Positions 1-12,004 of a stretch of 12,359 nt of DNA are shown here, piece by piece (positions within the stretch are counted from its first letter, which is position 1; the number at the start of each line of letters is the position of its first letter). A model generated the notes under the pieces. It searched no databases, was not told the DNA's origin, and was given only the letters and a program-made list of their open reading frames with translations. Origin of the DNA: Nitrosarchaeum sp. (GTDB taxonomy: Archaea > Thermoproteota > Nitrososphaeria > Nitrososphaerales > Nitrosopumilaceae); NCBI GenBank assembly GCA_965223865.1, contig CBDCXP010000002.1, positions 1 through 12,359 of the forward strand. The letters are read 5' to 3'. A program made the position numbers and the translations under genes.

Positions 1-1326
1 TCTAGCTGATTGTATGTGTCCTGTAAAATATCAGATATCATCATCCATTTTTCATGCCAGTCCGATGATGAGTTCTTGATTTCAGAGATTTTTTCTTGTG
101 CAGATTCTGGAAGTAATGGAACTATTACATCAAAGAATCTTTGGCGTTCCATAGATTCAAGATATCCATGTGAAAAGTCCTGACGATAAGTAATGTAAAG
201 TGAATCAGTTGAGACATGGATTGTTCCTGATCCTCCCATCAGAAATGTTTCAGAGTTTATTGTTTCTCCAAAAAGATCAATTGCTGTAACAGTGTTAAAG
301 TTGTAATGTCTATCAAAGTTATCAAAATAATAAACGTCAGGGGCCAATTCAAATTCAGAGTCTTCCATGATTAATGGGATTACTGGATGTCTGTAATCTA
401 TTCCAGATGTGGTAACAAGATAAACGTGGTTACCAATCATTCTTGCATTTTGAAATGAGCCATCAATAGAGTAATCCTTTATTATTTTTGGGGCCTCCTT
501 GTCAGAGATGTCCAGTATTGCAACATGTGTCGTTTGTCTATGGATTGATCTTGGAGCAAAGTCATATTCAGGAATTATTTGGTCTTGGCTTGTTCCGTAA
601 TAAAATATCACAAGCCTGTCATCATTTAGAAACATGTTCTGCAGGTTTTGCTGGTCGATGTCAAGGGCAGATTTGAAGATAATCTTGGCATTTTCTGCAG
701 GATATGCCTCTATTATCTTGAGATTCTGCTCAGAGACGATATAGACGTATTTTCCATCAGTTTTTAGAAAATCAGACTCATCTACTCCTTTGATTTGTAC
801 ATTGGTTGTAGAATAATCCGAACCAGATGAATCTGAAATGACTGATTCTGAATCTTGGTCTCTAAAAAAAGATGGTTCAGGCTCTGGTTCTGGCTCAGCC
901 ATAGGAACTGAAAATACGGTCCTATCAAGGGACATAGAACCAGAGTTTGCACGCATTTCCATATCTTCTTCTAACACAAATCCCCCATCGGCCTGAAACC
1001 CATCTATCATCATAGTGTCCATTCATGTTGCTTGTGGCCAATGCAGCTATGAATCTCTGGACTTCCTCTTGAGATGAGAATTTCTTAAGCTCCTGAGTTC
1101 CTTCAAAAAATTCTGAGAGATTGCCATCAACGTAAACCAGTCTCTCTGGAGCGTAACGAGATTGTTGGATGCGAATCTGCTGTTCCAAGTCTGCTACATA
1201 AAAAACAAACAGAGAGGAAACTATAACAACTGCAACTATAACTGAAATCAATATTTTATAATCCAAATTTTTCACTCCAGAGTTCTCCTGAAACCGAATT
1301 GACTGAATTTTAATCACGAATGGCAT
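1..1326 (-). CDS. Membrane-anchored/secreted beta-propeller domain protein (Beta_propel/COG4880-like); one apparent frameshift between ~928 and 1022; 3' end runs off the left edge of the window
   Basis: ORF 925-1326 supplies an N-terminal hydrophobic anchor (ILISVIVAVVIVSSLFVFYV) and ELKKFSSQEE. My translation of a second minus frame, open from 1022 to base 1, gives ...SGSMSLDRTVFSVPMAEPEPEPEPS...DYSTTNVQIKGVDESDFLKTDGKYVYIV...YSIDGSFQNARMIGNHVYLVT. The YSxTNVQxxGVDExDxxKTDG motif is characteristic of this family. The start may be ATG 1326 or TTG 1266 (GGAG just upstream). Confidence 0.85.
873..896 (-). repeat. Coding hexamer repeat (EPEPEPEP) in the beta-propeller protein linker
   Basis: Minus strand reads GAG CCA GAA CCA GAG CCT GAA CCA. 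Confidence 0.8.
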
Positions 1327-1350
1327 TGAATAACAAAACTATCAAAAAAA

Positions 1351-1387
1351 TGCATAAAACTTTTGATTAAATTTGGATTTTACCTAA
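1351..1387 (-). promoter_or_regulatory. Candidate TATA (TTTATGCA on minus) plus conserved upstream element, copy 1
   Basis: Plus strand tgcataaaacttttgattaaatttggattttacctaa. It is 26/33 identical to 6031-6063, and 1362-1387 is 25/26 identical to 3010-3035. It starts 24 nt upstream of ATG 1326. Confidence 0.7.
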
Positions 1388-1440
1388 ATTGATCACAAAG
1401 GTTATTTCCTCAAAATACATTTGCAAATAGAAAACACATT

Positions 1441-2383
1441 ATGAAAAAAAAGAATAACGGAAATCAAGAAGATAAAAACAATGTAGAAACTGAAAAAAAT
1501 CAAGAAAATGAAATTAGAGTTTTATCAGCTGATGATGAAAAAATTAAAGTTGTTGGCGAAGTACTAGCCAACGAATCAAGCAGAGCCATACTAAGACTGT
1601 TATCAAACATTGATGAGATGACAATTAACCAAATAGCTCAAGAGATGGATTTGTCAATTCCGTTGGTATCCCATCATCTAAAAAAGATGCAAGAGACAGG
1701 AGTTGTAAAAGTAAGCAGAGTTGGCAAGTCTGTAAAGGGACAAAAAATGAATTACTATTCCATAACCAATCAATCCTTTCTTATTACTCCCCCAGAAAAA
1801 CAAACACATTCTCTTTTTCACTCATTGAGAAAAATTTGCAAAATTTGCAGCTATTGGTATGGCAGGTCTTGTTTCATGGGCAATGCTAGAGCCAAAATCC
1901 AAAAACCAATTAGTACCTATTGAAGATGCCAGACAAACAAATTTTTCAGAACTTGATGAATCAGAAGAAAAGTGGTCATCAGCTTCTGAACTAGTAGATG
2001 AGAGTGAATCTGAAGTTGTAGAACCAACTGCTGCTGTACCTCCTGCACCAGAGTCAGTACCAGAGCCAGCACCTGAACCGGAGCCTGAACCTGAACCGGA
2101 GAGAGAATTAGAGCAAGAGTCTGAACCTTCTCACTCAGATGAGGGATTTGACTTGAAAATTGACTCAGATGGATTAGATACAGGCACAATATCCCTTGAT
2201 AGGACTGTCTATCCTGAACCATTTGCTAGCACCGGTGCAGAATCAGCAGATCCCATGATATTTTCCATTATCATTCCCATTGCAGTCATTGCAGGAGGCA
2301 TAATCATTGAAAGACTACTAACCCATTGGCACGGGAAGAGAAAAATGAAAAATTTCAGCTTTATCAAAAAAGATCCTAGATGA
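1441..2383 (+). CDS. Membrane-anchored ArsR-like winged-HTH transcriptional regulator (HTH - TM - acidic Pro/Glu loop - TM), ~313 aa; apparent +1 frameshift in the A5 run at 1830-1834
   Basis: N-terminal wHTH (LANESSRAIL...EMTINQIAQEMDLSIPLVSHHLKKMQETGVV...MNYY). Removing one A joins ORFs 1441-1923 and 1859-2383 as LRKFAKFAAIGMAGLVSWAML (TM1). TM2 is MIFSIIIPIAVIAGGIII, followed by a basic tail. The architecture matches the intact paralog at 6104-6904. Confidence 0.85.
2036..2102 (+). repeat. Low-complexity Pro/Glu coding repeat (VPPAPESVPEPAPEPEPEPEPE)
   Basis: Tandem degenerate CCN-GAR hexamers in the regulator loop. Confidence 0.75.
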
Positions 2384-2758
2384 GAGAATAACTTTTCTAA
2401 AATTATATATGTTTACAGAATTTAGTTTCTTCAAACTAGTACAAATAGAATTCTCAAATACAAAAATCAGATCAACTGACATTATGACAAATTCAGTAAA
2501 CTCCTAAATTATTTTAATGTAAGAAGTTAATTGTCTATATTTTAGAGATAATTTTTTTCAGAGTTAAAAAGAACGGTGGTCCTCCAATAAAGGCATGTCA
2601 TTAAATTTCTAGTACAGATTAATTTAGCAACACCATAATTTGTTTCTGATTATCCAATTATTATTTTCATTATTTTTATATTTTAAAATCTCAGTATCAA
2701 ATTTTGATAAATTCTTCTAAAATAATTACGAGATGATTTTTACAATTTTATTATTTGC

Positions 2759-2783
2759 ATTAGAACTAAAATAGAGTTCTAAT
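2759..2783. terminator. 9-bp inverted repeat overlapping the stop codon of 2779-2979; possible terminator or 3' stability hairpin
   Basis: attagaact-aaaatag-agttctaat. The stem is AT-rich, so it is weak. Confidence 0.3.
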
Positions 2784-2979
2784 TAATTCTTGAAACACCA
2801 ACTGAGAGTCTTTTGTTGCTTCTAGGTTTTAGTCTTGTCGCATTGTTGCAACAAGGACAACGAGGATATTTTTCTTTGAAATAATAATCACATATTTTAC
2901 AGTAGCATCCACCAGTCTGATAAATCTGACTTTTTGCAGCATTTTGTTTTTTTATGCATTGATTGTTACACATTAACAT
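2779..2979 (-). CDS. Small Cys-rich zinc-ribbon-like protein
   Basis: C-x3-C, CKIC and CPCC followed by RLKPR, a pattern I recall from small thaumarchaeal proteins. A TATA-like TTATAA lies about 22 nt upstream on the minus strand. Confidence 0.75.
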   Translation of the reverse strand: MLMCNNQCIKKQNAAKSQIYQTGGCYCKICDYYFKEKYPRCPCCNNATRLKPRSNKRLSVGVSRIN

Positions 2980-3000
2980 ATGATTTTGATTTCAGATTAT

Positions 3001-3035
3001 GTTATAACGTTTGATTAAATTTTGATTTTACCTAA
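3001..3035 (-). promoter_or_regulatory. Candidate TATA plus conserved upstream element, copy 2
   Basis: gttataacgtttgattaaattttgattttacctaa. Contains a perfect TTTGATT direct repeat at 3010 and 3021 (11-nt period). Confidence 0.7.
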
Positions 3036-3110
3036 CTTAATTTAAAAAAAATATTCCGAGTTAAAACGATTGGTGCAAAAACAAAAACCAGTATTTTCTG
3101 AGAATTGAAA

Positions 3111-4280
3111 TCACTTGGATAACGGCATCTTTGATTTTGACTCTGATGGTACAAAGTAAGTTTCTCCTCTGTTGGTCTTGTAACCTCCAGCAGAATCACT
3201 GGTCTCGTAGGCCCTAAGATGGACAGGATCTATGCCTGTCTGACCCTGGTTTTGGTCCTGTTTGAGCTTTCTGTTACTCACTACAAACATTACAACTCCT
3301 CCAATTGCTGCGATTCCGGCCATCCCATACATTACAGTTGCAGGAAACTCGTCAGTGTCAGGCCTGTAAGATACCGGAGAGTGGAGGTCCGTTTCAAAGG
3401 TATCAATACCGTCAATTGAGGAATAATCCACATAACCCTCTATTGCAATTGTTGCATCGTCTTGAGATTCTATTGCAGTTATCGAATATTTTCTGTCAAG
3501 CTCAAAGTCTTGTGACCATTCACGGTCTTTACAAAAATCACCAACCTCAAGGTTGCATTCACCCATTGAATAGTGTGTAACTACGTATTTGCCAGAAAAA
3601 TTATACTCCTTGGATCCAGCAATAATTGCAGTATTGTCAAAAAGAGAATGCCACTTGTGCAGTGGAAGTTCTGAAATCTTACTTGCATCAATTAGGGGCA
3701 ACCCCAATATTTCATAATCTGTTGCTTCAAGTTTGGTCATAACTTGTGGCATGAGAATATCCAGTGCATCTTTTGGATTGTTAATATCAAACTGACCATA
3801 CACTGTATCCAACTTTACGGGTTGATCAAGTGTTATTCCTCTCCAGTTTGCATCAATGATGCTCTTATCAGAATGTCTTTGCAAAATATGATTAGTGATT
3901 GTAGGGATCAGCTCAACTTTGTACTCTATTGCTGCAGAATCCTCATTTCCATTTAACATAGCACGGTAGATGATCTTTGCATCAGTAACAATTGCACTAC
4001 TAGATGAATCTCTAAGATTCTGATTAAGTTGACTTATCAGACTATCCATGCCAGGCGTTTGAGAGTCTGCAGTAATTGAGATTGACTGAGATTTGCCTCT
4101 TAGAAGATCTGCAATCTCTCCACCCTCAGGATATTCAATGTAGACTACTCTCAGAAATTTAAAGGAAGGCTCTGTAATGTCTTCGTCATGAATTATTGCT
4201 GCATCTAGCTGTGCTGCATATGCAGATGAAGGTACAAGAAATAACGTTACCAGAATTAGGAACAAAACTAGAAGATTCAT
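3111..4280 (-). CDS. Exported single-pass membrane protein of unknown function (signal peptide, ~310 aa ectodomain, C-terminal TM, cytoplasmic tail)
   Basis: The start is better placed at ATG 4280 (MNLLVLFLILVTLFLVPSSAYAA, an SPI-like signal) than at 4349, which would overlap the divergent gene. TM is VMYGMAGIAAIGGVVMFVV and the tail is GQTGIDP...SAGGYKTNRGE. Confidence 0.85.
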   Translation of the reverse strand: MNLLVLFLILVTLFLVPSSAYAAQLDAAIIHDEDITEPSFKFLRVVYIEYPEGGEIADLLRGKSQSISITADSQTPGMDSLISQLNQNLRDSSSSAIVTDAKIIYRAMLNGNEDSAAIEYKVELIPTITNHILQRHSDKSIIDANWRGITLDQPVKLDTVYGQFDINNPKDALDILMPQVMTKLEATDYEILGLPLIDASKISELPLHKWHSLFDNTAIIAGSKEYNFSGKYVVTHYSMGECNLEVGDFCKDREWSQDFELDRKYSITAIESQDDATIAIEGYVDYSSIDGIDTFETDLHSPVSYRPDTDEFPATVMYGMAGIAAIGGVVMFVVSNRKLKQDQNQGQTGIDPVHLRAYETSDSAGGYKTNRGETYFVPSESKSKMPLSK

Positions 4281-4379
4281 GCTAATATATCCATAGAAAT
4301 AGATATATCCATTATTATCAAATACAAGAATTATGGCGGATATATCCAATGCATCAAAGACATCGATGGATATATTCCG
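4281..4379. promoter_or_regulatory. Four imperfect copies of the palindrome ATGGATATATCCAT; putative operator array
   Basis: 4281-4294 GCTAATATATCCAT (10/14), 4299-4312 ATAGATATATCCAT (13/14), 4336-4349 GCGGATATATCCAA (11/14), 4366-4379 ATGGATATATTCCG (11/14). Confidence 0.7.
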
Positions 4380-4956
4380 CAGTATTATGGATTATGGTCC
4401 GCTCACCCTTTATGCTGCAAATAATAAAACAAAAATTCCCATAGGCACGATTCACAGACATTTTAAGCTGCTTGAAAAAGCAAGAAAGATTCGTGTTTAC
4501 AAGTCAAATAAGAAAGGCCGGAAAAAAATAGAATACGGTCCCACAATTTATGGAATTCTTAGTTTCTATAGACAAGACAGAATGATTGCAGAAAAGATTG
4601 AAAATTATTTTCTGCTGTGGGCAGAAAACAGGGAATTCCAGTACGAGCTCCACAAAGAAGGATTTGAACGATTTGATGCTAAAAAGAGCCAAAAAGCAAA
4701 AAGAATTTTCCATAAATACATGGACTATTTTAGTGCAATAGAGGATCAGATAGACATAATAAAAAATGGCAACGACATCATAACTCGAGACATCTTAATT
4801 ATGATTAGCTCTGGTCTGCTCTCAACAAATCCACACTACCAGAAAATGTGGAGGGATTTGTATCAAAACTTGCCAGGTATGAGAGAAAGCCTGGATAATT
4901 ATATGAAGAGCATGATCAAGTCACATAGGGAATTAAAAACTCTTAATTCCAAATAA
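4333..4956 (+). CDS. Soluble winged-HTH DNA-binding protein, putative transcriptional regulator
   Basis: GPLTLYAANNKTKIPIGTIHRHFKLLEK helix-turn-helix and GRKKIEYGPTIYG wing. It is divergent from 3111-4280. Alternative start at ATG 4366. Confidence 0.8.
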   Translation: MADISNASKTSMDIFRSIMDYGPLTLYAANNKTKIPIGTIHRHFKLLEKARKIRVYKSNKKGRKKIEYGPTIYGILSFYRQDRMIAEKIENYFLLWAENREFQYELHKEGFERFDAKKSQKAKRIFHKYMDYFSAIEDQIDIIKNGNDIITRDILIMISSGLLSTNPHYQKMWRDLYQNLPGMRESLDNYMKSMIKSHRELKTLNSK

Positions 4957-5647
4957 TAATTTTATTTGAAAATAAAACAAAGAACATAATTATTGTAACA
5001 GTTACTGGAATCAAATAGACAAATCGGTTTATGTTTTTTTTATTTGCATAATTTTGATATGCAAGGTAGACAATAGTTCCGGCAGATATTGCAGTTATGA
5101 TATTCATGATATCAAATGGGTCATCATTTATGATACTGCATTCTCTTAATCCAAAACTGCATAAAGAAATCAAGATTAAAAAATTCCAAACAGAGTGAAA
5201 TGCAATTGCAAACCATCCCTTGCCACTACTCCATGTTCTCAGGCTAAAAAATATGTGAGGAATAGAGAACAAAAATCCTCCATATGCTAGACTTTCAAGT
5301 GAAACAATTCCCGAATTAAACAGATGAGAGACAGACCAAATTATTCCAGTTCCAAGCAAAACAAAAGAGTTTCCCGTGAGATAAAACGGAATGCCAAAAA
5401 ACACCGACTCTTCTAGCAATCCAGAGCTTAGTGCTAATGAAATTGATACTGGTATCTGGGGAGTTTCATAGTCAGGTATCATATTTGTGACCAATTGTGA
5501 GCCTAATTGCATCAATGCCAACCCCAAAGTATGGTAAAACAGGCCCATCTTGAAGAGATAGACAAGGTTTGTCTTTTGGAATGATTTTAGCCAGTTTTTT
5601 GGATTAATGTCATGTATCTCGCTTCTCAATGTTGTTCTGATTTGCAA
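4943..5647 (-). CDS. CPBP (Abi/type II CAAX protease) family intramembrane glutamic endopeptidase
   Basis: Multi-TM protein with family motifs EESVFFG (EExxFxG; the usual Arg is replaced by Phe), WSVSH (FxxxH-like) and AFHSVWN (HxxxN). The start is uncertain (TTG 5683, 5647 or 5629). Confidence 0.75.
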   Translation of the reverse strand: MQIRTTLRSEIHDINPKNWLKSFQKTNLVYLFKMGLFYHTLGLALMQLGSQLVTNMIPDYETPQIPVSISLALSSGLLEESVFFGIPFYLTGNSFVLLGTGIIWSVSHLFNSGIVSLESLAYGGFLFSIPHIFFSLRTWSSGKGWFAIAFHSVWNFLILISLCSFGLRECSIINDDPFDIMNIITAISAGTIVYLAYQNYANKKNINRFVYLIPVTVTIIMFFVLFSNKIIIWN

Positions 5648-5674
5648 GGTTTGCTTATTTAGTATGTCAAAGAT

Positions 5675-5691
5675 AAAAAACAAAAAGAGAA
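5675..5691 (-). terminator. Archaeal oligo-U terminator after the small membrane protein gene
   Basis: Minus strand TTCTCTTTTTGTTTTTT begins 8 nt after the TGA at 5699-5701. Confidence 0.55.
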
Positions 5692-5698
5692 GGGGCAG

Positions 5699-6010
5699 TC
5701 ATCCTCTGCCCATCTCAGCATATTTGCCTTGTCTGCCTTTAACAAAGAATGCTGTAGCAATTCCGCCAAAGACACCTGTGGATAGTACTAGTGCACCTAT
5801 GACTCCATCGGCTGCAAGCAATGGAGTTCCAGAGCCTGCGCCAGGTTGTTCATTTGCAATTGCTACTCTGTTTTTTGCCAATTGCAAATAGGCATCAAGT
5901 CCAGTCTGACCATCAATTGGAACGTATTGTGCAAATGCGCTGCTAACAGAAGGCAATATCAAAATGCTTAGAATTGCTCCCGTTGCAATTATTGTCTTTT
6001 TTGTACTCAT
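5699..6010 (-). CDS. Small exported, C-terminally anchored membrane protein (signal peptide, ~38 aa ectopeptide ending in PGAGSGTP, TM, basic tail)
   Basis: MSTKKTIIATGAILSILILPSVSSAFA|Q is an AFA signal peptidase-like site. TM is GVIGALVLSTGVFGGIATAFFV and the tail is KGRQGKYAEMGRG. Confidence 0.85.
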   Translation of the reverse strand: MSTKKTIIATGAILSILILPSVSSAFAQYVPIDGQTGLDAYLQLAKNRVAIANEQPGAGSGTPLLAADGVIGALVLSTGVFGGIATAFFVKGRQGKYAEMGRG

Positions 6011-6030
6011 TGAAATTGTTAAGTAAATTT

Positions 6031-6066
6031 TGCATAAAGGCTTTGATGAAATTATGACTTTACTAA
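6031..6066 (-). promoter_or_regulatory. Candidate TATA (TTTATGCA on minus) plus conserved upstream element, copy 3
   Basis: tgcataaaggctttgatgaaattatgactttactaa. It starts 20 nt upstream of ATG 6010 and is 26/33 identical to 1351-1383. Confidence 0.65.
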
Positions 6067-6103
6067 TCTTTACATAGTTTGTTGCTGTAATATTATTACA
6101 GTT

Positions 6104-6904
6104 ATGATTGACAAAAATTCAGAGATAGCTAATAGCATAGATATTTTTTCAACAGATGATGAAAAGCTAAAGATATTAGCTGAGATAATTTCAAACAAAC
6201 CAAGTATAGAAATTCTAAATGTTTTGTTTAACAATGAGATGACTGCAAATGAATTAGCACAAAAAATTAACATCTCATTGCAGCTAGTAAAGTATCATTT
6301 AGAAAAGATGCAAAGAATTGATCTTGTTCATGTTTCCAGAGTAGGAAAAAATTCCAAATCACGAGACATGAATTATTACAAGACATCAAAACTTGCAATA
6401 CTGATAACGCCATCAAAAATAACTGAAAAAGCAAAACAAAGTAAATTACTAAAACGTTCCTTTAGATCAATTTACCGATTCTTTGGAATTGGGATAACAT
6501 CTCTAGTGGCAATACTTTCTGTAATGTCAGTTACAGCTGAGAGCAGCCTGTTTACTCCCATTAAAAATTGGTATTCAGGCTTTGAAATTCCAATATCAAT
6601 ACCCGGAACTGGCCTTCCAAGTACAATTGATGAGACATATTATTTAGCAAAGACCAAAGTTGACTCTGTAGTGGCAAATCCAGGAGCAGGATCTGGAACC
6701 CCATATTTTGATCCATACACAAATGTTCTAGGGTACACCGTCAATGACTTTGTAATAACAATGTTAGTTATTGGGGCAATTGGAGTTGTCATGTCATTAC
6801 CGTTTTTTGTAATGTCTTATAGACACTCCAAGAAACATCCAGAATTTACCAATCTTGCCATATCAAAAAATAAGATAGTAAATTTCAAAATAGATAACAA
6901 ATGA
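6104..6904 (+). CDS. Membrane-anchored ArsR-like winged-HTH transcriptional regulator (HTH - TM - loop - TM); paralog of 1441-2383
   Basis: Shares DDEK, EMTxNxxAQ, LVxxHLxKMQ, VSRVGK, MNYY and LITP with 1441. TM1 is FFGIGITSLVAILSVMSV and TM2 is FVITMLVIGAIGVVMSLPFFVM. Confidence 0.9.
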   Translation: MIDKNSEIANSIDIFSTDDEKLKILAEIISNKPSIEILNVLFNNEMTANELAQKINISLQLVKYHLEKMQRIDLVHVSRVGKNSKSRDMNYYKTSKLAILITPSKITEKAKQSKLLKRSFRSIYRFFGIGITSLVAILSVMSVTAESSLFTPIKNWYSGFEIPISIPGTGLPSTIDETYYLAKTKVDSVVANPGAGSGTPYFDPYTNVLGYTVNDFVITMLVIGAIGVVMSLPFFVMSYRHSKKHPEFTNLAISKNKIVNFKIDNK

Positions 6905-6974
6905 TAACTTTGAGCTAAAAAAAGTTGGAAAGTGAAGAATCTGTCAATCTTACCTCAGAACCAATCTTTTGTGA

Positions 6975-7613
6975 CTATCTATTTACAAATCTACCATAGC
7001 CTACGACTCCGTTCTCATTTACTCCCCATGTAGGTGGAACTATCCACAAAAATCCCTCTGAATCAGACTCCAAATCCAGTTTGGGAAGTATATTTGATGG
7101 AGATGCTTGGTTTGCTGCAGGACCTCCAGTGGCTGCTCCTGTTAGCGGGTCGTAAGTGCTTGCATGACACGGACACTCCCCCCTTTGACGTCCTTGTTCA
7201 GGCCAATACTTCCACAGGCACCACAAGTGCAGACACACCATACTATATGCCCTAAAGGCAGATACATCAGTCGCATCTCCTCCAAGTTCATCTGGAAGGC
7301 GTATCAGATTCCATTTCCTAAAGGCTTCCTGATCAAGTGCAAGATCACCCGTACTAGGGTATGTGATTACCTCAGCATGGTTTTTTGGAAATGTTGAAAT
7401 GTTTGCCTGTGTTCCATCTGGCAAAATCGCACGTGCTCTCTCTAAAATGTCATTGGCGATATTTGGCATGTAATTTCCAAATGGAATAAATGGAGCAAAT
7501 GCTAGACCTATTCCTGCTGCGCCAATCAGCTTCAAAAAATCACGTCTAGAGAGGTCATCGTTTCTCTCTTGTTTTTGATAGTCGATAGAACCGCTTTTAC
7601 GCTGTTCCGACAT
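6975..7613 (-). CDS. Tat-exported Rieske [2Fe-2S] protein
   Basis: Twin-arginine signal SRRDFLK plus a hydrophobic stretch. Rieske boxes are CLHLWC and CPCHASTY. Confidence 0.92.
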   Translation of the reverse strand: MSEQRKSGSIDYQKQERNDDLSRRDFLKLIGAAGIGLAFAPFIPFGNYMPNIANDILERARAILPDGTQANISTFPKNHAEVITYPSTGDLALDQEAFRKWNLIRLPDELGGDATDVSAFRAYSMVCLHLWCLWKYWPEQGRQRGECPCHASTYDPLTGAATGGPAANQASPSNILPKLDLESDSEGFLWIVPPTWGVNENGVVGYGRFVNR

Positions 7614-7659
7614 GACTTACAATATGCATTTCATACCTATTAACTATGCGAAACAATTG

Positions 7660-7681
7660 TTTTTTTTTTTTTTTTTTTTTT
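7660..7681. repeat. T22 homopolymer in the intergenic region upstream of the Rieske gene
   Basis: 22 consecutive T on the plus strand. Confidence 0.9.
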
Positions 7682-7722
7682 GAATTGATGTTATAATTGG
7701 AAAAATTCATCAGCTCATAGTT

Positions 7723-8208
7723 TTAAGATTGTGGGTTTATCTTGCATTCTACTTTTAGGGATTTGACAGTTGTATAGTATGTAAGTACTAGCACCCCAAT
7801 TGCAGCTATTCTTATTGGAATCTCAAAATTTGTCAAAAACGCTGATGCCGTAGCTCCTACCGTTCCAAAAGTAGAGATTACTGCAAAGCCAATAGGACCA
7901 CAACTACATGCCCCTGCAGCAGCACCAATTATTGAGCCAAATACTCCTCCACCCATTTTCTTTTTTGAGCTTTTTAGAATATTGATTCGATAAACATTCA
8001 TTGGAATTACCAATCCAGACAATCCAGACAAAATAACAATTAATGAAAATCCAATTTCTGTTCCCTTTGGAATATGACTAACCACATATGGTTCAAGAAA
8101 AATATACTCAGAGATTATCAGCAACCCAATAAGCATGGGTAAAAAAATTGCAGCTGCCAATGCAATGTATCGATAATTGGAAAATACGAGTTTGATTGTG
8201 TTTGCCAT
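7723..8208 (-). CDS. Four-TM membrane protein with a membrane-embedded CxC motif; function unknown
   Basis: Four hydrophobic segments and AAAGACSCGP. It starts 1 nt after the stop of the DsbA-like gene, suggesting an operon. Confidence 0.8.
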   Translation of the reverse strand: MANTIKLVFSNYRYIALAAAIFLPMLIGLLIISEYIFLEPYVVSHIPKGTEIGFSLIVILSGLSGLVIPMNVYRINILKSSKKKMGGGVFGSIIGAAAGACSCGPIGFAVISTFGTVGATASAFLTNFEIPIRIAAIGVLVLTYYTTVKSLKVECKINPQS

Positions 8209-8209
8209 T

Positions 8210-8872
8210 TTATATCATAGAATCCAGTACTTGTTTAAAAACCGAATAAGGTTGAGCTCCTCCTATTTGTTGTTGATCATCAGGGCCTACAATGAAGAAC
8301 CCAGGAGTGCCTCGTACTCCATGTTTTTTTGCCTCATCAATATTATGCTGAACTCTTTTAGAATATTTTCCAGAATCAAGACAGATTTCAAACAACTCCA
8401 TATCAAGTCCTAAACTAAATGCAAATGCCTTTAGGCGTTCAGAATTTGCCCAGCCATTATCAATTTTTGATTCTTGGGAATTATACAGTATATCATGATA
8501 CTCCCAGTATTTTCCTTGGTCTTCTGCGCAGTATGATGCCTGAGCAGCTCTTGGTGAATCCCTACCAAGAAAAGCAAGATCAACAAAAACAAAGTTTGCC
8601 TTACCAGTATCTACATAATTCTCAAATATAGCAGGTTTTGTGTTGTGAAACCAATTGTAACATTGATGACATTGGTAATCACCAAATTCTACAATAGTAA
8701 TTGGTGCAGAAGGATCTCCTAGAATCGAAGAACCCATTGCAGTTGAAATGGTACCATGTGTTCGGCTCATATCTAGATTAACAGTTTCAGATTGGGGAGA
8801 TGCAGAATAAGATGCGGCGATTCCAATGATTACTGCAGCAACCACTGCACCAATTACAAGTCCTTTTTTCAT
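8210..8872 (-). CDS. Membrane-anchored DsbA-family thiol-disulfide oxidoreductase (Thioredoxin_4-like)
   Basis: GDPSAPITIVEFGDYQCHQC active site, GVRGTPGF cis-Pro loop and an N-terminal TM. The start is ATG 8872 or GTG 8884. Confidence 0.92.
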   Translation of the reverse strand: MKKGLVIGAVVAAVIIGIAASYSASPQSETVNLDMSRTHGTISTAMGSSILGDPSAPITIVEFGDYQCHQCYNWFHNTKPAIFENYVDTGKANFVFVDLAFLGRDSPRAAQASYCAEDQGKYWEYHDILYNSQESKIDNGWANSERLKAFAFSLGLDMELFEICLDSGKYSKRVQHNIDEAKKHGVRGTPGFFIVGPDDQQQIGGAQPYSVFKQVLDSMI

Positions 8873-8903
8873 GTCAAAAAACACTGAAATTCGGTTAAAA
8901 AAC

Positions 8904-9116
8904 TTATTCCAAATTATGTGAGGATTTTCTTTTGAATAAACCAGTTATTTTTGAAATTGCAGTGTCTATAGGACATTCTTCACATGAGACACCAGAATTG
9001 TGTTCATCAAGATGTTTTTCAAATTTTTTCCTAGATTCAAAAACAGAGTCGCATCTAGAACAGTAGACTTTGGTGATGTTGTTTTTAGGTAATTTTTCCA
9101 CAAACAATTTTTGCAA
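8904..9116 (-). CDS. Small C2H2-type zinc-finger protein
   Basis: CSRC-x3-F-x8-H-x3-H followed by an additional CEEC. Confidence 0.75.
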   Translation of the reverse strand: MQKLFVEKLPKNNITKVYCSRCDSVFESRKKFEKHLDEHNSGVSCEECPIDTAISKITGLFKRKSSHNLE

Positions 9117-9151
9117 CTAGTCCTTATAAAGATCCTGTTGAAAACCATCTT

Positions 9152-9451
9152 ATGAAGAAAATAGTAGACAGGATTGTAACAGGTTTTTTTGTTTTTGTCT
9201 TTGGAGTTTTATGGTTTTTTAGCAAAAAATATCATATAAAGTCAGATCAGTACAACATTATTGTTTATGATTTGTTAGAAAAACAAGTAAAACTTGATGG
9301 AGTTAGAACAAGTTTCAAAACAAAGGAAGTTGCTACAAGTTTTCTAAAAGAATACAAGAATCGTTTTACACATTATGAGTTTTCAATAGCAGAGACTATT
9401 CCTGAATTTAAGAGAAGGACAATATTCTCGATTTTAAGAGATCAAAGATAG
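9152..9451 (+). CDS. Hypothetical protein
   Basis: 99-aa ORF filling the gap between two minus-strand genes. It has a hydrophobic N-terminal segment and the start is uncertain. Confidence 0.6.
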   Translation: MKKIVDRIVTGFFVFVFGVLWFFSKKYHIKSDQYNIIVYDLLEKQVKLDGVRTSFKTKEVATSFLKEYKNRFTHYEFSIAETIPEFKRRTIFSILRDQR

Positions 9452-9810
9452 TGTATTTTCATGTGGTTTTGGTATTCCACCTCATATTGTGTAACAAACC
9501 CACAATGAGAGCATGAGAACATTTCAGGTGGGGGCGGAGATGGCTCTCGTTCAATAGACTTGCCAGAAATGGATTTGATTGTAATTATATCATTACTTGA
9601 TATTACTGCAAAATTATGTCCCTCCCCTATTGAATCTAAAAATTCCTTAATTGATGAAATGACTACATTTGTGTCCACAGGTCCGTCATCAAACATGGAT
9701 AATGTAAACTGGTGATGTTTTATGGTAGGAATTGCTGCAACCTGATCAGATACATATACAAGTAATTCATTTTTGATTGACGAGACATCCTTACAATCTA
9801 CTGTTAACAT
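9442..9810 (-). CDS. Protein with a C-terminal C2H2-type zinc finger
   Basis: FSCSHCGFVTQYEVEYQNHMKIH follows a Pro-rich linker (PSPPPP). The start is ATG 9810 or TTG 9831. Confidence 0.8.
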   Translation of the reverse strand: MLTVDCKDVSSIKNELLVYVSDQVAAIPTIKHHQFTLSMFDDGPVDTNVVISSIKEFLDSIGEGHNFAVISSNDIITIKSISGKSIEREPSPPPPEMFSCSHCGFVTQYEVEYQNHMKIHYL

Positions 9811-9891
9811 AGCCACCTTTTGCAGAATCAATATTTTAGTTTAACACATATTTTGAAAATAATTATTATGGTTTGAAATTATTCAAAATAG

Positions 9892-10278
9892 ATGAAGGAC
9901 TCTGAGACATTTGGAATAGAAAAAGGACATGGAGAAGAAGTAGTGACCTGGCTCAATGAGCAATCAAAGACTCAAAAAACAAAATTAGAAGCAAGATTAT
10001 ACAATCATATACTTACTACAAAAAATTTTGGAGATTTTGAAATGTTTTCTTGGATTGGAGATGTGCAAACAGCAAGAAAGATGATAATCAAAGCTAGCAA
10101 AAGATTCAAGATCAAAGTAATCGAGGGAGGATACAAACCTAAAGAAAGAGTTTTCAGAATGAAGAAATTTGATTATGCCAAAATTAGAAAAGGAGACAAG
10201 ACCTTAGGTCATTTAGAATTAGAAGCATCAAGATTTGGAAGTAACCACTGGGAAGTAAAAGATGAAGAAAGAAGATAA
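9892..10278 (+). CDS. Hypothetical protein
   Basis: 128-aa ORF with typical composition, first of three co-oriented genes. No motif recognised. Confidence 0.75.
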   Translation: MKDSETFGIEKGHGEEVVTWLNEQSKTQKTKLEARLYNHILTTKNFGDFEMFSWIGDVQTARKMIIKASKRFKIKVIEGGYKPKERVFRMKKFDYAKIRKGDKTLGHLELEASRFGSNHWEVKDEERR

Positions 10279-10302
10279 ACCAAAACAACATGAGGAAATA
10301 AA

Positions 10303-11176
10303 ATGAGAATAGGAATTATTGGAACTGGGATGTTGGGAAATGCAGTAGGTCTGCATTTGTTAGATTCAGGGTTTGAATTAACAGTATACAACAGAACAAC
10401 TGAAAAGACAAAACAATTAGAAAGCAAAGGTGCCATAGTGGTTGATTCACCAAAAAAAGTAGCTGAGGAGCTCAGAACTTGTAATAACTATTGTAAAAGA
10501 CGCAGACGCAGTTAGGCAGGTGTCTTTTGAGGAAAATGGAATCATTGAGGGAAAACATGAGGGTTTAACAGTTGCAGATATGAGTACCATCAATCCCTCA
10601 GAATCAAAAAATATTTCAGAACAATATGAAAAAAACAGAATTAAGAAATTAGACATCCCAGTCATGGGAGGACCAAATGTAGCAATTTCTGGAGAATTGG
10701 TAATAATGGCCTCTGGAGATAAAGTAACATTTGAGAAATTCAAAAAAGTGTTTGAAAAAATTGGAAACAAGGTTTTCTTTTTGGGTGATAGTGGGGTTGC
10801 ACATTCAGTAAAACTGGCTATGAATCTTCAAATAGCAATGCTTGCACTTTCGCTATCTGAAGGAATAACCCTAGTAAGAGGAGCTAAGGTAGACCCCAAA
10901 GTATTTCTTGAAATTCTCAATTCAACCTATTTTAAAACTGGCATGAGCGAAAATAAAGCATACAAGATGATCAAAGATGAATTCCAGGCCACATTCACAT
11001 TAGAAAATTTGAATAAAGACATCAAAACTATTGTTAAAACTTCAGATTCTTATGGACTCGATCTTCCAATGATCAAAAAAGCCGAAGAGATTTACCAAAA
11101 TGCAACAAAACAGGGTTTTGGAAAAATAGATTACACAGGAATTTTAGCATACCTCAAAAAAATAAATGAACAATAA
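10303..11176 (+). CDS. NAD(P)-dependent beta-hydroxyacid dehydrogenase (3-hydroxyisobutyrate dehydrogenase / 2-hydroxy-3-oxopropionate reductase family); apparent +1 frameshift at ~10468
   Basis: IGIIGTGMLG, YNRT, DMSTINP, DIPVMGG and VKLAMN motifs. Removing one G at 10467-10468 joins the two ORFs as VAESSELVITIVKDADAVRQV. Confidence 0.9.
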
Positions 11177-11242
11177 TTTTTGATCGAAATTAAGACTGAT
11201 AGCTACCAAAAATTCTATAAGTTACTCCTGTAAACGGGTATT

Positions 11243-12004
11243 ATGCTAATGAAAGACAAAGTCGCAATTGTAACTGGAGCTTCCAGCGATATTGGAAAAG
11301 GAATAGCAAAGAAATTTGTTGAAGAAGGTGCCAAAGTCATTCTTGTTGCAAGAAGTCTAGAAAAATTAGAAGTAGTCAGAAAAGAGATAGGAAACGAAGA
11401 AGCCACTGCGTCAGTTCCATGTGATTTAACAGACGAATCACAGGTCATACAAGCAATTAATCAAATTATTGACAATTATGGAAAAATAGACATTCTAGTT
11501 AATAATGCCGGAGCAATTAATAATCCTGTCCATTTTCACGATATGGCAGATTCAGAGATAAAAAAATTAATTGATGTGAATCTCTTTGGAGTTTTTCACA
11601 TGACAAAAGCAGTCTTAGGAAAAATGTATGATGTCAAAAACGGAGTGATCATAAATATTGGTTCCATTTCAGGCGACAGAGCAGTTCCAAGAGTGCATTT
11701 GGCTGCATATTCAGCAACCAAAGCTGCAATCTCAATGTTCACAAAGGCAATAGCAGTAGAATATGCACGAAGCAACATAAGATGCAACTGTATAAGTCCT
11801 GGAATAATAAAGTCAGGAATGATAAAGGTATTTTTGGACGACCCGGAGGCAAGAAAGGTGTTAGAAGACAGGTTGCCATTAGCAAGAATAGGAGAGCCAG
11901 AAGATGTTGCAAACTCTGTATTATTCTTAGCTTCAGATGAAGCAAACTGGATTACAGGTGCCATTCTAAACGTAGATGGTGGAAAGACAGCTTCAGAAGC
12001 CTAA
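11243..12004 (+). CDS. Classical short-chain dehydrogenase/reductase (FabG-like)
   Basis: [12 protein letters not shown], catalytic S...YSATK, NCISPG and [11 protein letters not shown]. Confidence 0.93.

What the first reader, a model, noticed from the sequence alone, without database searches (positions are those of the whole stretch)
873..6904. Candidate new system: membrane-anchored ArsR-like regulators whose external loop copies a peptide from their own divergent target protein (two independent cases)
Seen in sequence: two paralogous HTH-TM-loop-TM regulators have similar DNA-binding domains but unrelated loops. Each loop instead matches the exported protein encoded head-to-head with it: SLDRTV plus PEPE repeats in pair 1, and LAK...PGAGSGTP in pair 2. 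I saw no cross-match between pairs. Established: membrane-tethered one-component regulators exist (ToxR/CadC in bacteria, ArnR in Sulfolobales). Inference: the loop acts as a bait or mimic of the target, undergoing the same cleavage, modification or binding event, or co-assembling with it, so target status at the cell surface is relayed to its own promoter. I do not know a described system with this logic.
Basis: partly seen in the sequence, partly recalled or inferred. Interest (0 to 1): 0.92.

Follow-up and report, generated by a model that had tools for sequence, protein, structure and literature searches.

The report
Membrane-tethered regulators sharing segments with partners
Two membrane-anchored gene switches of an ammonia-oxidizing archaeon each share a short outward-facing stretch with the neighbouring protein they probably control, one through old common ancestry and one through DNA copying, which hints at a self-monitoring circuit but does not show one.

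Summary
Both matches are real. Loop against its own neighbour beats every composition-preserving shuffle (0/1000 each), and the cross-pairs do not. The two cases differ in kind, and the proposed rule is not general.

The regulators belong to a family of transmembrane ArsR-type winged-helix regulators found only in Nitrosopumilaceae: 85/151 family genomes, and 0/216 genomes of other families in the phylum. Each is transcribed back-to-back with an exported partner, across a conserved inverted repeat.

Pair 2: the regulator's loop plus TM2 is an old paralog of its about 100-aa partner (hhalign 98.6%). The cognate partner matches no better than non-cognate orthologs.

Pair 1: the shared core, GS(V/I)SLDRTVYPxPF, is a motif of an S-layer protein Ig-like domain. 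It is invariant in this regulator subtype, even where the neighbour lacks it. The partner's copy is homogenised by gene conversion.

In the largest partner class (SIMPL, 21 pairs) the loops show no match.

In this window the pair-1 regulator and its partner each carry a +1 frameshift. A relative (G030) has both genes intact.

Verdict: a new variant of a known kind. The mimic or bait mechanism is neither excluded nor shown.

The parts
3..1326 (-). Partner 1: membrane-anchored Beta_propel (PF09826) protein. It is broken here by a +1 frameshift near 992, into an N-part (925..1326) and a C-part (3..1022), and it is cut by the contig end.
   Evidence: Pfam Beta_propel 155.3 bits. Frames. One extra base relative to G030 at about 992. 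Contigs of runs X2 and X3 also lack that base. The intact 758-aa ortholog is in G030.
873..992 (-). Segment of partner 1 that matches loop 1: ADGGF...GSMSLDRTVFSVPMAEPEPEPEP. It lies in the linker between the N-terminal anchor and the propeller.
   Evidence: Coordinates. SW tests. The orthologous linker (residues 82-152 of the G030 protein) is modelled with pLDDT below 50, so it is probably disordered.
1362..1386 (.). Putative operator 1, TTTGATTAAATTTGGATTTTACCTA. It is an inverted repeat between the two divergent TATA-like boxes.
   Evidence: The same architecture is found in 33 of 47 classed pairs by a strict pattern.
1441..2383 (+). Regulator 1 (reg1 type): ArsR-type wHTH, TM1, acidic loop, TM2. 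It is frameshifted at the A5 run 1829-1833, giving an HTH ORF (1441..1923) and a loop+TM2 ORF (1859..2383).
   Evidence: Pfam HTH_5 41.6 bits. Frames. A5 here against A4 in G030. Runs X2 and X3 lack the extra base. The intact 304-aa ortholog is in G030.
2057..2224 (+). Loop 1 segment shared with partner 1: EP repeats plus DEGFDL...TGTISLDRTVYPEPF. The core resembles an S-layer-protein Ig-like-domain motif.
   Evidence: The run DRTVYPEPF is invariant in the 4 reg1-type regulators aligned. DNA inverted repeats of 38 nt (74% complementary) and 39 nt (72%) link it to 874-935.
2255..2320 (+). TM2 of regulator 1, followed by a basic tail.
4943..5683 (-). CPBP/Rce1-like intramembrane protease directly downstream of partner 2. 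Among the fetched class-A loci it is an accessory seen only in Nitrosarchaeum.
   Evidence: Pfam Rce1-like 23.9 bits against a cut-off of 22.4. Among the fetched 7-kb loci a homolog is found only in G030. A fragment lies next to the G091 pair in L012.
5699..6010 (-). Partner 2: 103-aa small protein made of a signal peptide, an amphipathic helix, NPxxGSGTP, a Gly-rich TM helix and a conserved GKYAxMGRG tail.
   Evidence: No Pfam or NCBIfam family.
5822..5890 (-). Segment of partner 2 that matches loop 2: YLQLAKNRVAIANEQPGAGSGTP.
6042..6066 (.). Putative operator 2, TTTGATGAAATTATGACTTTACTAA, between the divergent TATA-like boxes.
6104..6904 (+). Regulator 2 (class A), intact. wHTH at about residues 19-94, TM1 at 126-144 (6479-6535), outside loop, TM2 at 216-234 (6749-6805).
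   Evidence: Pfam HTH_5/HTH_24. AF2 model: wHTH pLDDT 84-93, C-terminal half 40-80. Foldseek best hits are ArsR/SmtB-type proteins. TM and charge pattern.
6638..6712 (+). Loop 2 segment homologous to the small-protein family: YYLAKTKVDSVVANPGAGSGTPYFD.
   Evidence: hhalign of regulator C-halves against small proteins: probability 98.6%, E 1.1e-15, 62 columns. Coordinates.

Best explanation
WHAT IT IS. The region holds two members of a family of transmembrane transcription regulators found only in Nitrosopumilaceae. Each has a cytoplasmic ArsR-type winged helix, TM1, an acidic loop of 45-150 aa facing the pseudoperiplasm, TM2 and a short basic tail. Each is transcribed back-to-back with a gene for an exported or membrane-anchored partner.

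HOW IT LIKELY WORKS. A conserved inverted repeat (about TTTGAT[G/T]AAA-N5-6-TTT[T/C]A[C/T]C) sits between the two TATA-like boxes. It is most likely the regulator's operator, so regulator and partner would be controlled together. This step is inferred.

TWO ORIGINS OF THE SHARED STRETCHES.
- Pair 2: the regulator's loop plus TM2 is an old paralog of the small partner protein. The regulator is in effect an HTH fused to a copy of its target. The shared helix-NPxxGSGTP-TM module is conserved in both lines across genera.
- Pair 1: an invariant sensor-loop motif of this regulator subtype, which resembles an S-layer-protein Ig-like-domain motif, also stands with EP repeats in the disordered linker of the neighbouring beta-propeller protein. 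The two inverted copies are kept alike by gene conversion.

FUNCTIONAL READING (inferred). The loop is the sensor. Where it is homologous to the partner, it senses either the partner itself, by like-with-like association of homologous modules, or the same outside ligand or surface component that the partner binds. This is the logic of sensors that are paralogs of their targets.

STATE IN THIS WINDOW. Pair 1 is frameshifted in both genes. That is either decay or assembly error.
For: FAMILY AND FOLD.
- Pfam HTH_5 scores 41.6 and 22.9 bits against a cut-off of 22.
- In the AF2 model the wHTH has pLDDT 84-93.
- Foldseek best hits are PH1932, Phr, NolR, HlyU, SmtB and CzrA, at E 7e-6 to 1e-3.
- Topology, over 59 regulators: the stretch before TM1 is net positive in 58, the loop net negative in 56, the tail net positive in 57, and the TM1 17-residue hydropathy is at least 1.0 in 57.

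DISTRIBUTION.
- 85 of 151 family genomes and 18 of 27 genera at E <= 1e-8.
- At E <= 1e-10, 29 of 34 genomes of the family (without G000) and 0 of 216 genomes of other families of the phylum.

PARTNERS. Of the 59 regulators analysed, 21 have a SIMPL partner (PF04402, 186 bits for one tested), 14 a Beta_propel partner, 12 a small-protein partner, and 12 no classed partner.

OPERATOR. A strict pattern hits 33 of 47 classed pairs, or 5.7 per kb. Elsewhere in the same loci it hits 28 times in 532,612 nt, or 0.053 per kb. It always lies between TATA-like boxes.

PAIR 2.
- hhalign probability 98.6%, E 1.1e-15.
- 11 of 12 class-A loops beat all 200 shuffles.
- GSGTP-like loops occur in 10 of 12 class-A, 1 of 14 class-B and 0 of 21 class-C regulators.
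- There is no DNA inverted repeat at the motif in the window.

PAIR 1.
- Cognate is rank 1 of 14, with z 6.4 (G030) and 10.6 (G091).
- G091 has a 30-nt identical tract.
- Identical-residue codons are identical in 9/9, 10/10, 10/13 and 10/14 cases in the two G091 loci, and the synonymous differences between those loci are shared by regulator and partner.
- DRTVYPEPF is invariant in 4 of 4 reg1-type regulators, including G141, whose divergent neighbour lacks it.
- The motif lies in the S-layer protein ortholog, which matches PDB 8c8k at E = 0. The segment is found in 90 of 151 family genomes.
Against: - Nothing here is experimental. The operator is assigned from conservation and position only, and whether the regulator activates or represses is unknown.
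- TM1 is only weakly hydrophobic in the SIMPL class and in the reg1 type (17-residue hydropathy 1.0-1.3). No dedicated TM predictor was run, so the outside location of those loops rests on the charge pattern.
- The AF2 model of the regulator's C-terminal half has low confidence (pLDDT 40-80).
- For pair 2 the cognate partner is no closer than non-cognate partners, so there is no sign of pair-specific co-evolution.
- Gene conversion can keep two copies alike without any function.
- The largest partner class shows no shared segment, so homology with the partner cannot be essential to how the family signals.
- Two loci have mismatched loop and partner types.
- Only three propeller-partnered reg1-type loci were found. 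Two of them are from one MAG.
Confidence: 0.6

Rival explanations
1. Mimic or bait. The loop is a functional copy of an exposed segment of the target, or of the S-layer protein. It undergoes the same cleavage, modification, binding or co-assembly event, so the surface status of the target is relayed to the shared promoter.
For: - The matches are well above chance and recur in orthologous pairs.
- In the propeller class, loops prefer the cognate partner: mean rank 4.25 of 14, and 21 of 20,000 permutations do as well.
- The best alignment lies wholly inside the partner's N-terminal linker in 5 of 14 pairs by the script's flag. By my reading of the printed coordinates it overlaps the linker or the start of the propeller in 5 more.
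- The reg1 loop motif is invariant and equals a conserved S-layer motif.
- The motif and TM of pair 2 are conserved in both proteins.
Against: - There is no similarity in the 21 SIMPL pairs.
- There is no cognate preference in class A.
- The G141 regulator keeps the motif beside a neighbour that lacks it, and L060 has a GSGTP loop beside a propeller.
- The pair-1 similarity is maintained at the DNA level.
- The partner's segment is predicted disordered, with no docking site seen in the model.
- Cognate preference can also come from shared genome composition and from gene conversion.
Confidence: 0.25
2. Evolutionary by-product. The shared stretches are leftovers of a duplication and fusion (pair 2) and of ectopic gene conversion between neighbouring inverted segments in tolerant disordered regions (pair 1). 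They have no role in signalling, and the loops act mainly as spacers or sense something unrelated.
For: - Gene-conversion signatures.
- The linker is predicted disordered.
- The SIMPL class works without any shared segment.
- Mismatched loci exist.
Against: - NPxxGSGTP and the helix are conserved in both protein lines across at least 8 genomes of several genera, with no DNA-level repeat in the window.
- DRTVYPEPF is the longest invariant block of an otherwise variable loop across two genera. That points to selection on the loop motif.
Confidence: 0.2
3. Cation or metal sensing. The acidic, Met-, Ser- and Pro-rich loops, and the similar linkers of the partners, bind a metal or cation such as copper in the pseudoperiplasm. 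Loop and linker look alike because they share a ligand, not because one monitors the other.
For: - The DNA-binding domain is of the ArsR/SmtB type.
- Loops are net negative in 56 of 59 regulators.
- Met-rich stretches such as MAMKSAP and MMKSSPMMD stand in SIMPL-class loops and in propeller linkers, by my reading of the sequences printed.
- That Met-rich motifs bind Cu(I) is recalled, not tested here.
Against: - Loop 1 and loop 2 of this window are not Met-rich (one search prints them).
- No known metal-binding domain was found.
Confidence: 0.1
4. Processing signal. The motif-TM-basic-tail arrangement of the small protein and of regulator 2 is a recognition site for an intramembrane protease, such as the CPBP enzyme next door. 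The protease would release a peptide and, by regulated proteolysis, the regulator.
For: - A CPBP/Rce1-like gene lies directly downstream of partner 2.
- The motif sits just outside the TM helix in both proteins.
- The nearest Atlas cluster that carries a Pfam family carries Gram_pos_anchor in 12% of members, at score 0.77, which is only a lead.
Against: - The CPBP gene lies beside the pair only in Nitrosarchaeum loci.
- The 14-residue cytoplasmic tail of the small protein is itself conserved, which is unlike a discarded sorting signal.
- Cleavage near TM2 would not free the HTH from TM1.
Confidence: 0.07

Closest known systems
Transmembrane transcription regulators (TTRs) as surveyed by Demey et al. 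2023 (PMC10269533; passages read, supplements not seen)
   Same: A DNA-binding domain plus transmembrane segment(s) in one protein, acting from the membrane. The paper reports such proteins as widespread in archaea, about 4 per genome.
   Different: The passages I read do not mention this family, ArsR or Thaumarchaeota. The fixed back-to-back pairing with three partner classes, and a sensor module paralogous to the target, are not described there.
ArnR/ArnR1 of Sulfolobus acidocaldarius (PMC6396743; passages read)
   Same: Archaeal membrane-bound one-component regulators with an N-terminal HTH and two TM helices. They bind inverted repeats upstream of the promoter of a surface-structure gene.
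   Different: ArnR has a cytoplasmic HAMP and sensor domain, and its two TM helices are C-terminal. Here the variable sensor lies between the TM helices, and no HAMP match was found. Homology to ArnR was not tested.
ToxR-ToxS, TcpP-TcpH and CadC-LysP (recalled, not read here)
   Same: A membrane-bound transcription factor whose activity depends on a second membrane protein, often encoded next to it.
   Different: Those use OmpR-type winged helices and a single TM helix. The co-component is not a paralog of the sensor domain, and it is usually co-transcribed rather than a divergent target.
Sensors that are paralogs of their regulated targets: UhpC/UhpT, Snf3-Rgt2/Hxt (recalled, not read here)
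   Same: The sensing module is a diverged copy of the protein whose expression it controls, as in pair 2.
   Different: Those signal through separate kinases or cascades. Here the paralogous module would be fused directly to the DNA-binding domain.
SdpR-SdpI of Bacillus subtilis (recalled; an NCBIfam SdpR-family model hit both regulators below its cut-off)
   Same: An ArsR-type autorepressor whose activity is set at the membrane in response to an exported peptide.
   Different: SdpR is soluble and is captured by a separate membrane protein. Here the tether is built in.

Membership tests
ArsR/SmtB-type winged-helix regulators | Sequence match to the ArsR HTH model (Pfam HTH_5, PF01022) above the gathering score | tested here: met
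   Regulator 1 N-part scores 41.6 bits and regulator 2 scores 22.9 bits, against a cut-off of 22.
ArsR/SmtB-type winged-helix regulators | Winged helix-turn-helix fold | tested here: met
   The AF2 model has four helices (H19-30, H32-43, H48-55, H59-71) and a beta hairpin, with pLDDT 84-93. Foldseek gives TM 0.55-0.67 (normalised by target length) over 75-80 residues to SmtB, CzrA, NolR and HlyU.
ArsR/SmtB-type winged-helix regulators | NCBIfam metalloregulator subfamily NF033788 cut-off | tested here: not met
   Scores are 50.3 and 29.9 bits against a cut-off of 55.
ArsR/SmtB-type winged-helix regulators | Metal-binding sites (alpha3N / alpha5 ligands) | not tested
   No residue-level comparison was made.
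Transmembrane transcription regulators (TTR, PMC10269533) | A DNA-binding domain plus at least one predicted transmembrane region | tested here: met
   TM prediction used hydropathy windows only.
ArnR family | HAMP and sensor domain between the HTH and two C-terminal TM helices | tested here: not met
   No HAMP family appears among the Pfam matches at E <= 0.1. The variable region lies between the TM helices.
ToxR/CadC-type regulators | OmpR-type (Trans_reg_C) DNA-binding domain and a single TM helix | tested here: not met
   No Trans_reg_C match. There are two hydrophobic segments.
PDGLE domain (a name given to one small-protein homolog by UniRef and to Atlas clusters) | Match to the Pfam PDGLE model (accession PF13190 recalled) | tested here: not met
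   The PDGLE family is not among the 11 families matched by the 18 small proteins scanned at E <= 1.
Beta_propel (PF09826), partner 1 | Pfam match above the gathering score | tested here: met
   155.3 bits against a cut-off of 22.4. The propeller is modelled in the G030 ortholog with pTM 0.68.
C-terminal sorting signal with a dedicated protease | Conserved neighbourhood of substrate and protease | tested here: not met
   A CPBP homolog is present in 1 of the 12 fetched class-A loci (G030, the same locus as the window). A fragment also lies in L012 of G091.
N. maritimus S-layer protein (source of the pair-1 core motif) | Full-length sequence match to the solved S-layer protein | tested here: met
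   The 1,839-aa ORF C1:621255-626774 matches PDB 8c8k chain A (1,734 aa) at E = 0, 2036.8 bits. The motif stands at residue 913.

The most novel reading that the evidence does not exclude
These regulators are surface-status sensors. Their sensing element is a copy of an exposed segment of the very protein they control: the small GSGTP protein or the linker of the propeller protein. In the reg1 type it is also a copy of a conserved S-layer strand motif. The loop would compete or co-assemble with the original at the cell surface, and so report the partner's abundance, its processing or the integrity of the S-layer to the shared promoter. Gene conversion between the inverted copies would keep sensor and target in register.
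Probability: 0.22. Interest if true: 0.85.

Novelty: new variant of a known kind. Interest (0 to 1): 0.55.

Why it matters
Ammonia-oxidizing archaea have few described signalling systems. This family is present in over half of the Nitrosopumilaceae genomes sampled, usually in one to four copies. It comes with a ready-made prediction: an operator, two promoters, a partner gene and a sensor loop. That makes envelope-to-gene signalling in these hard-to-manipulate organisms testable in vitro or in a surrogate host.

Three observations were not found in the papers searched:
- the sensor module of one class is a paralog of the regulated small protein;
- the sensor loop of another subtype carries an S-layer strand motif;
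- a regulator and its target exchange sequence by gene conversion.

If the similarity proves functional, it would be a compact form of target-mimic feedback. If it does not, the case is a caution: adjacent inverted genes can come to resemble each other by recombination alone.

Tried and rejected
COMPLEX PREDICTION. I sent the regulator 2 loop+TM2 (alignment A1, residues 48-128) with the small protein (A2, residues 27-103) to complex prediction. The verdict was 'no answer' (score 0.01 against a mark of 0.32), and the controls were not run. I count this neither for nor against binding.

EXPRESSION AND READS. The look-up of sequencing runs listed no RNA holder, and no run holds more than 0.13 of the sampled words. 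Expression could therefore not be addressed. The window's own variant was not found in reads, so I cannot say whether the two frameshifts are real or assembly errors. Read laying only showed that related contigs in X2 and X3 lack the extra bases.

INTRAMOLECULAR DOCKING. I asked whether the partner's motif docks on its own propeller. The AF2 model leaves the linker disordered, so this is not supported. Foldseek of that model gave only generic propeller hits such as DDB1 and IFT-A, with TM at or below 0.25.

PDGLE OR CbiN-LIKE IDENTITY OF THE SMALL PROTEIN. Rejected. The Atlas search returned only the protein's own Nitrososphaerota clusters.

FUSED FORMS OF THE SMALL PROTEIN. A search among longer proteins (196-2000 aa) with alignment A2 found none at E <= 0.001. 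The tool itself calls this weak evidence, and the regulators were not recovered either.

PUBLIC NAMES. Cluster look-up gave no source names for regulator 2, partner 2 or a SIMPL-class regulator. The G030 regulator 1 is not in the collection.

CPBP PROTEASE AS A CORE COMPONENT. Rejected, because it is not conserved beside the pair.

COVARIATION IN THE PAIR-2 MOTIF. I read the two variable positions of NPxxGSGTP in the 8 orthologous pairs. The regulators have GA, GE, GA, GA, GA, GA, GE, SS. The partners have GA, GK, ST, HT, GT, ST, ST, AV. There is no covariation, and the 8-residue identity in this window is special to G000/G030.

LITERATURE.
- The search 'Nitrosopumilus, ArsR, transmembrane, transcriptional regulator' returned 5 papers, none on this family. 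I read passages of PMC7785015.
- The search 'membrane-anchored transcription / archaea / Nitrososphaerota / transmembrane transcription' led to PMC10269533, of which I read passages.
- For the ArnR search I read passages of PMC6396743.
- For the S-layer search I read passages of PMC11153153.
File S1 of PMC10269533 may list these proteins, and the extended data of PMC11153153 give domain borders that would place the motif. I could see neither.

ROWS DROPPED.
- Of the 115 places listed, I fetched 60 regions covering 62 places. I chose them by E-value and contig length and left out G092 and G077.
- One region (L088) was a 402-base slip. I re-fetched it as L103 and read it separately.
- Of the 63 HTH-matching ORFs in those loci plus the window, I dropped the two window ORFs as duplicates of G030 and two fragments of 65 and 99 aa. 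That left 59.
- The tallies include the unpublished genomes G092 and G077. The tally includes G077. No other claim rests on them. Locus L017 (G092) was fetched automatically and not used.

Full report
SETTING. The window is a whole 12,359-base contig (C3) of a four-contig assembly of 2.01 Mb. Public relatives found with the regulator are titled Nitrosarchaeum sp. MAGs. Positions 7441-12359 are 92% identical to C1:1689375-1694274. Positions 1-7118 align at 96.3% to the start of the closed genome G030. In the main chromosome C1 the genes that flank this stretch in G030 lie next to each other without it. The finding therefore sits on a strain-variable island, and C3 looks like an alternative haplotype.

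THE OBSERVATION: REGULATORS. Regulator 2 (6104..6904 +, 266 aa) is intact. Regulator 1 is split into an HTH ORF (1441..1923) and a loop+TM2 ORF (1859..2383) in another frame. The window has A5 at 1829-1833 where G030 has A4. The beta-propeller partner is also split, into 925..1326 and 3..1022, by an extra base near 992, and it is cut by the contig end. G030 has both genes intact, at 304 and 758 aa. Contigs of two public runs from two studies also lack both extra bases. No run holds the window's own variant, so real decay and assembly error cannot be told apart.

THE OBSERVATION: MATCHES. The HTH domains are 44% identical over 122 aa. The loops are unrelated.
- Loop 2 against its neighbour scores 61, against 24.2 +/- 4.4 for 1,000 shuffles, with none reaching it.
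- Loop 1 against its neighbour scores 67, against 37.1 +/- 5.9. Without the EP repeats it scores 59, against 27.6 +/- 4.4. No shuffle reaches either.
- The cross-pairs are at chance.
The cognate neighbour is not the best match in the genome, however. Loop 2 scores 85 against two identical small-protein paralogs in C1. The non-repeat part of loop 1 scores 74 against a 1,839-aa protein, 60 against another ORF and 59 against its neighbour.

THE FAMILY: FOLD AND TOPOLOGY. The N-terminal domain is an ArsR-type winged helix. Pfam HTH_5 is above its gathering score. The AF2 model of that domain has pLDDT 84-93. Foldseek best hits are PH1932, Phr, NolR, HlyU, SmtB and CzrA. It stays below NCBIfam's metalloregulator cut-off. 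Across 59 family members, the stretch before TM1 is net positive in 58, the loop net negative in 56 and the tail after TM2 net positive in 57. This fits an N-in, loop-out, C-in topology. TM1 is weakly hydrophobic in two subgroups, and no dedicated predictor was run.

THE FAMILY: RANGE AND PARTNERS. The family was found in 85 of 151 genomes of its taxonomic family (18 of 27 genera) at E <= 1e-8 (this tally includes the unpublished G092 and G077). At E <= 1e-10 it was found in 29 of 34 genomes of the family and in 0 of 216 genomes of other families of the phylum. I fetched 60 regions covering 62 of the 115 places. Of the 59 regulators analysed, the divergent neighbour is:
- a SIMPL/DUF541 protein in 21 (one tested by Pfam, 186 bits);
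- a Beta_propel protein in 14;
- a small protein of about 100 aa in 12;
- unclassed in 12.

A SHARED PROMOTER ARCHITECTURE. In all three classes the intergenic region has the same layout. A TATA-like box faces the partner, an inverted repeat of the form TTTGAT[G/T]AAA-N5-6-TTT[T/C]A[C/T]C follows, and a TATA-like box faces the regulator.
- A strict pattern hits 33 of 47 classed pairs: A 5/12, B 11/14, C 17/21. That is 5.7 per kb.
- Elsewhere in the same loci it hits 28 times in 532,612 nt, or 0.053 per kb.
- Several of the 14 misses show variant half-sites by eye, including perfect palindromes such as TTTGATGAAA...TTTCATCAAA. Others were cut short by over-long ORF calls.
- In the window the sites are 1362-1386, 6042-6066 and a third at 3010-3034.
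Position and symmetry fit an operator for a dimeric winged-helix protein controlling both promoters. This is inference.

PAIR 2. Partner 2 belongs to a small-protein family specific to Nitrososphaerota: 175 proteins at E <= 0.001, with no Pfam or NCBIfam family. Its parts are a signal peptide, an amphipathic helix, NPxxGSGTP, a Gly-rich TM helix and a conserved cytoplasmic tail.
- A profile of 12 regulator C-halves matches a profile of 18 small proteins with 98.6% probability and E 1.1e-15. The match spans 62 columns covering helix, motif, TM and basic stretch. Regulator 2 is in effect an HTH fused to a copy of its partner.
- 11 of 12 class-A loops beat all 200 shuffles against their partner.
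- GSGTP-like loops stand in 10 of 12 class-A regulators, 1 of 14 class-B and 0 of 21 class-C.
- The cognate partner scores no better than non-cognate ones: mean rank 6.58 of 12, permutation 10973/20000.
- The two variable motif positions do not covary in the 8 orthologous pairs I read.
- The window has no DNA inverted repeat at the motif.
This is old paralogy under protein-level conservation, not lineage-by-lineage copying. The exact eight-residue identity in this window is a local coincidence or a small conversion: a 19-nt stretch is 89% identical.

PAIR 1: THE SHARED SEGMENT. The shared segment lies in the partner's linker between the membrane anchor and the propeller. The AF2 model of the G030 ortholog leaves that linker disordered (residues 82-152, pLDDT below 50). 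Two further propeller-partnered loci of this regulator subtype were found. Both are in one MAG, G091, on contigs C89 and C191. There the Pro-rich stretch reads EPVPAPQPE in both regulator and partner, where G000/G030 have EPEPEPEP in both.

PAIR 1: DNA-LEVEL IDENTITY. At the DNA level the two G091 copies share a 30-nt identical tract. Codons for identical residues are the same in 9/9 and 10/10 cases in the Pro-rich stretch, and in 10/13 and 10/14 cases at the LDRTV stretch. The synonymous differences between the two G091 loci are shared by regulator and partner within each locus. That is the signature of gene conversion between the inverted copies. In G030 only 2 of 8 such codons agree, so there the identity is at protein level.

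PAIR 1: THE MOTIF IS NOT PRIVATE TO THE PAIR.
- GSVSLDRTVYPVPF stands at residue 913 of the 1,839-aa ORF. That ORF is the ortholog of the solved N. maritimus S-layer protein (PDB 8c8k, E = 0).
- The 43-residue segment around it is found in 90 of 151 family genomes, almost always in frames of about 1,700 aa (the tally includes the unpublished G077).
- The motif also opens the mature N-terminus of a 701-aa exported protein.
- In the passages I read, the S-layer protein is described as an array of Ig-like domains (PMC11153153). I could not see the domain borders, so 'first strand of a domain' is my inference.
- DRTVYPEPF is invariant in the four reg1-type regulators aligned. One of them is from another genus (G141), and its divergent neighbour is a 150-aa protein without the motif.
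The motif is therefore a conserved feature of this sensor loop. The propeller linker of Nitrosarchaeum carries a copy that recombination keeps alike.

HOW GENERAL IS 'LOOP RESEMBLES PARTNER'?
- Class C (SIMPL): not at all. Mean rank is 12.0 of 21, permutation 15601/20000, and the z scores lie around 0.
- Class B (propeller): a real but uneven signal. Mean rank is 4.25 of 14, and 21 of 20,000 permutations do as well. The signal is strong in the two reg1-type pairs and moderate in L049 and L050 (5/200 shuffles each). L049 also has a 17-nt identical tract.
- The best alignment lies wholly inside the partner's N-terminal linker in 5 of 14 class-B pairs by the script's flag. By my reading of the printed coordinates it overlaps the linker or the propeller start in 5 more.
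- Related genomes are not independent. Shared genome composition and gene conversion both inflate cognate preference.
- One propeller-partnered regulator (L060) has a GSGTP loop.

MECHANISM. Shown:
- fold and family;
- a charge pattern consistent with an outside loop;
- conserved pairing and a conserved palindrome;
- paralogy in pair 2;
- gene conversion and the S-layer-like motif in pair 1.
Inferred:
- the palindrome is the operator;
- the loop is the sensor;
- in the small-protein class the sensor reports either the partner itself, through association of homologous helix+TM modules, or the same outside ligand.
This is the logic of sensors that are paralogs of their targets (UhpC/UhpT, Snf3/Hxt; recalled), here fused directly to a DNA-binding domain. 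A neutral by-product reading is also open, though conservation of both motifs argues against pure neutrality.

COMPARISON AND NOVELTY. Transmembrane transcription regulators are a known and widespread kind (PMC10269533, passages). ArnR is the studied archaeal example, but it has a different architecture (PMC6396743, passages). I found no description of this family, its operator, its three partner classes, the paralogous sensor or the regulator-target gene conversion in four literature searches. The supplements that might list the proteins were closed. I rate it a new variant of a known kind with moderate interest. The original claim of a new signalling logic rests on two cases of different origin and fails in the largest partner class.

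Noticed in passing
window 3010-3034, with ORF 2779..2979 (-): A third, nearly identical copy of the pair-1 operator (TTTGATTAAATTTTGATTTTACCTA) has no regulator gene beside it. It lies 31 nt upstream of a 66-aa Cys-rich ORF (CxxC...CxxC, zinc-ribbon-like by eye). It is also present in G030. It may be a further target of regulator 1, or a relic promoter.
   Followed up: partly
window 3111..4349 (-) and 4333..4956 (+): A third head-to-head pair of a different kind: a 207-aa HTH protein without a TM helix (Pfam HTH_20, weak) facing a 412-aa exported protein with an N-terminal signal and a C-terminal TM helix. The exported protein has no family match.
   Followed up: no
window 1-7440 compared with G000:C1 around 1688700-1689650 (L104): The roughly 7.4-kb stretch that carries both regulator pairs is missing from the main chromosome C1. 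There a 154-aa exported-protein gene and the DsbD-like gene are neighbours. The flank 7441-12359 is 92% identical to C1. C3 therefore looks like a second haplotype in the sample.
   Followed up: partly
window about 992 and 1829-1833: Both genes of pair 1, and only these among the coding regions aligned to G030, carry frame-breaking single-base insertions. If real, regulator and target decayed together.
   Followed up: partly
G000:C1:353928-354257 and 688659-688994 (L101, L102): Two small-protein paralogs with identical protein sequence apart from their called N-terminal starts stand away from any transmembrane regulator. At the one locus read (L101), the copy is divergent from a 195-aa protein with a weak CopG/ribbon-helix-helix match. 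Their motif ANPASGSGTPYLD is closer to loop 2 than the cognate partner's is.
   Followed up: partly
loci L053-L082 (SIMPL-class regulators): The loops of the SIMPL-partnered regulators are acidic and rich in Met, for example MAMKSAP, MMKSSPMMDTTPM and SESMMMRSIP. This recalls Cu(I)-binding Met motifs. That resemblance is recalled, not tested.
   Followed up: no
L060 (G022:C13:151500-159000): This regulator has a GSGTP-type loop but a beta-propeller partner. That suggests loop modules and partners have been reshuffled.
   Followed up: no
L044 and L046 (G006, G080): In two distant genera the small-protein gene overlaps or is followed by an ORF of 600-617 aa for an exported protein. It looks vWA-like by eye; this was not tested.
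   Followed up: no
L103 3007..3459 (-), L037 8223..8693 (+), L104 8728..9192 (-): A conserved exported protein of about 150 aa with no Pfam family lies downstream of the propeller gene in G030. In G141 it lies directly opposite the reg1-type regulator, as if the propeller gene had been lost there.
   Followed up: partly
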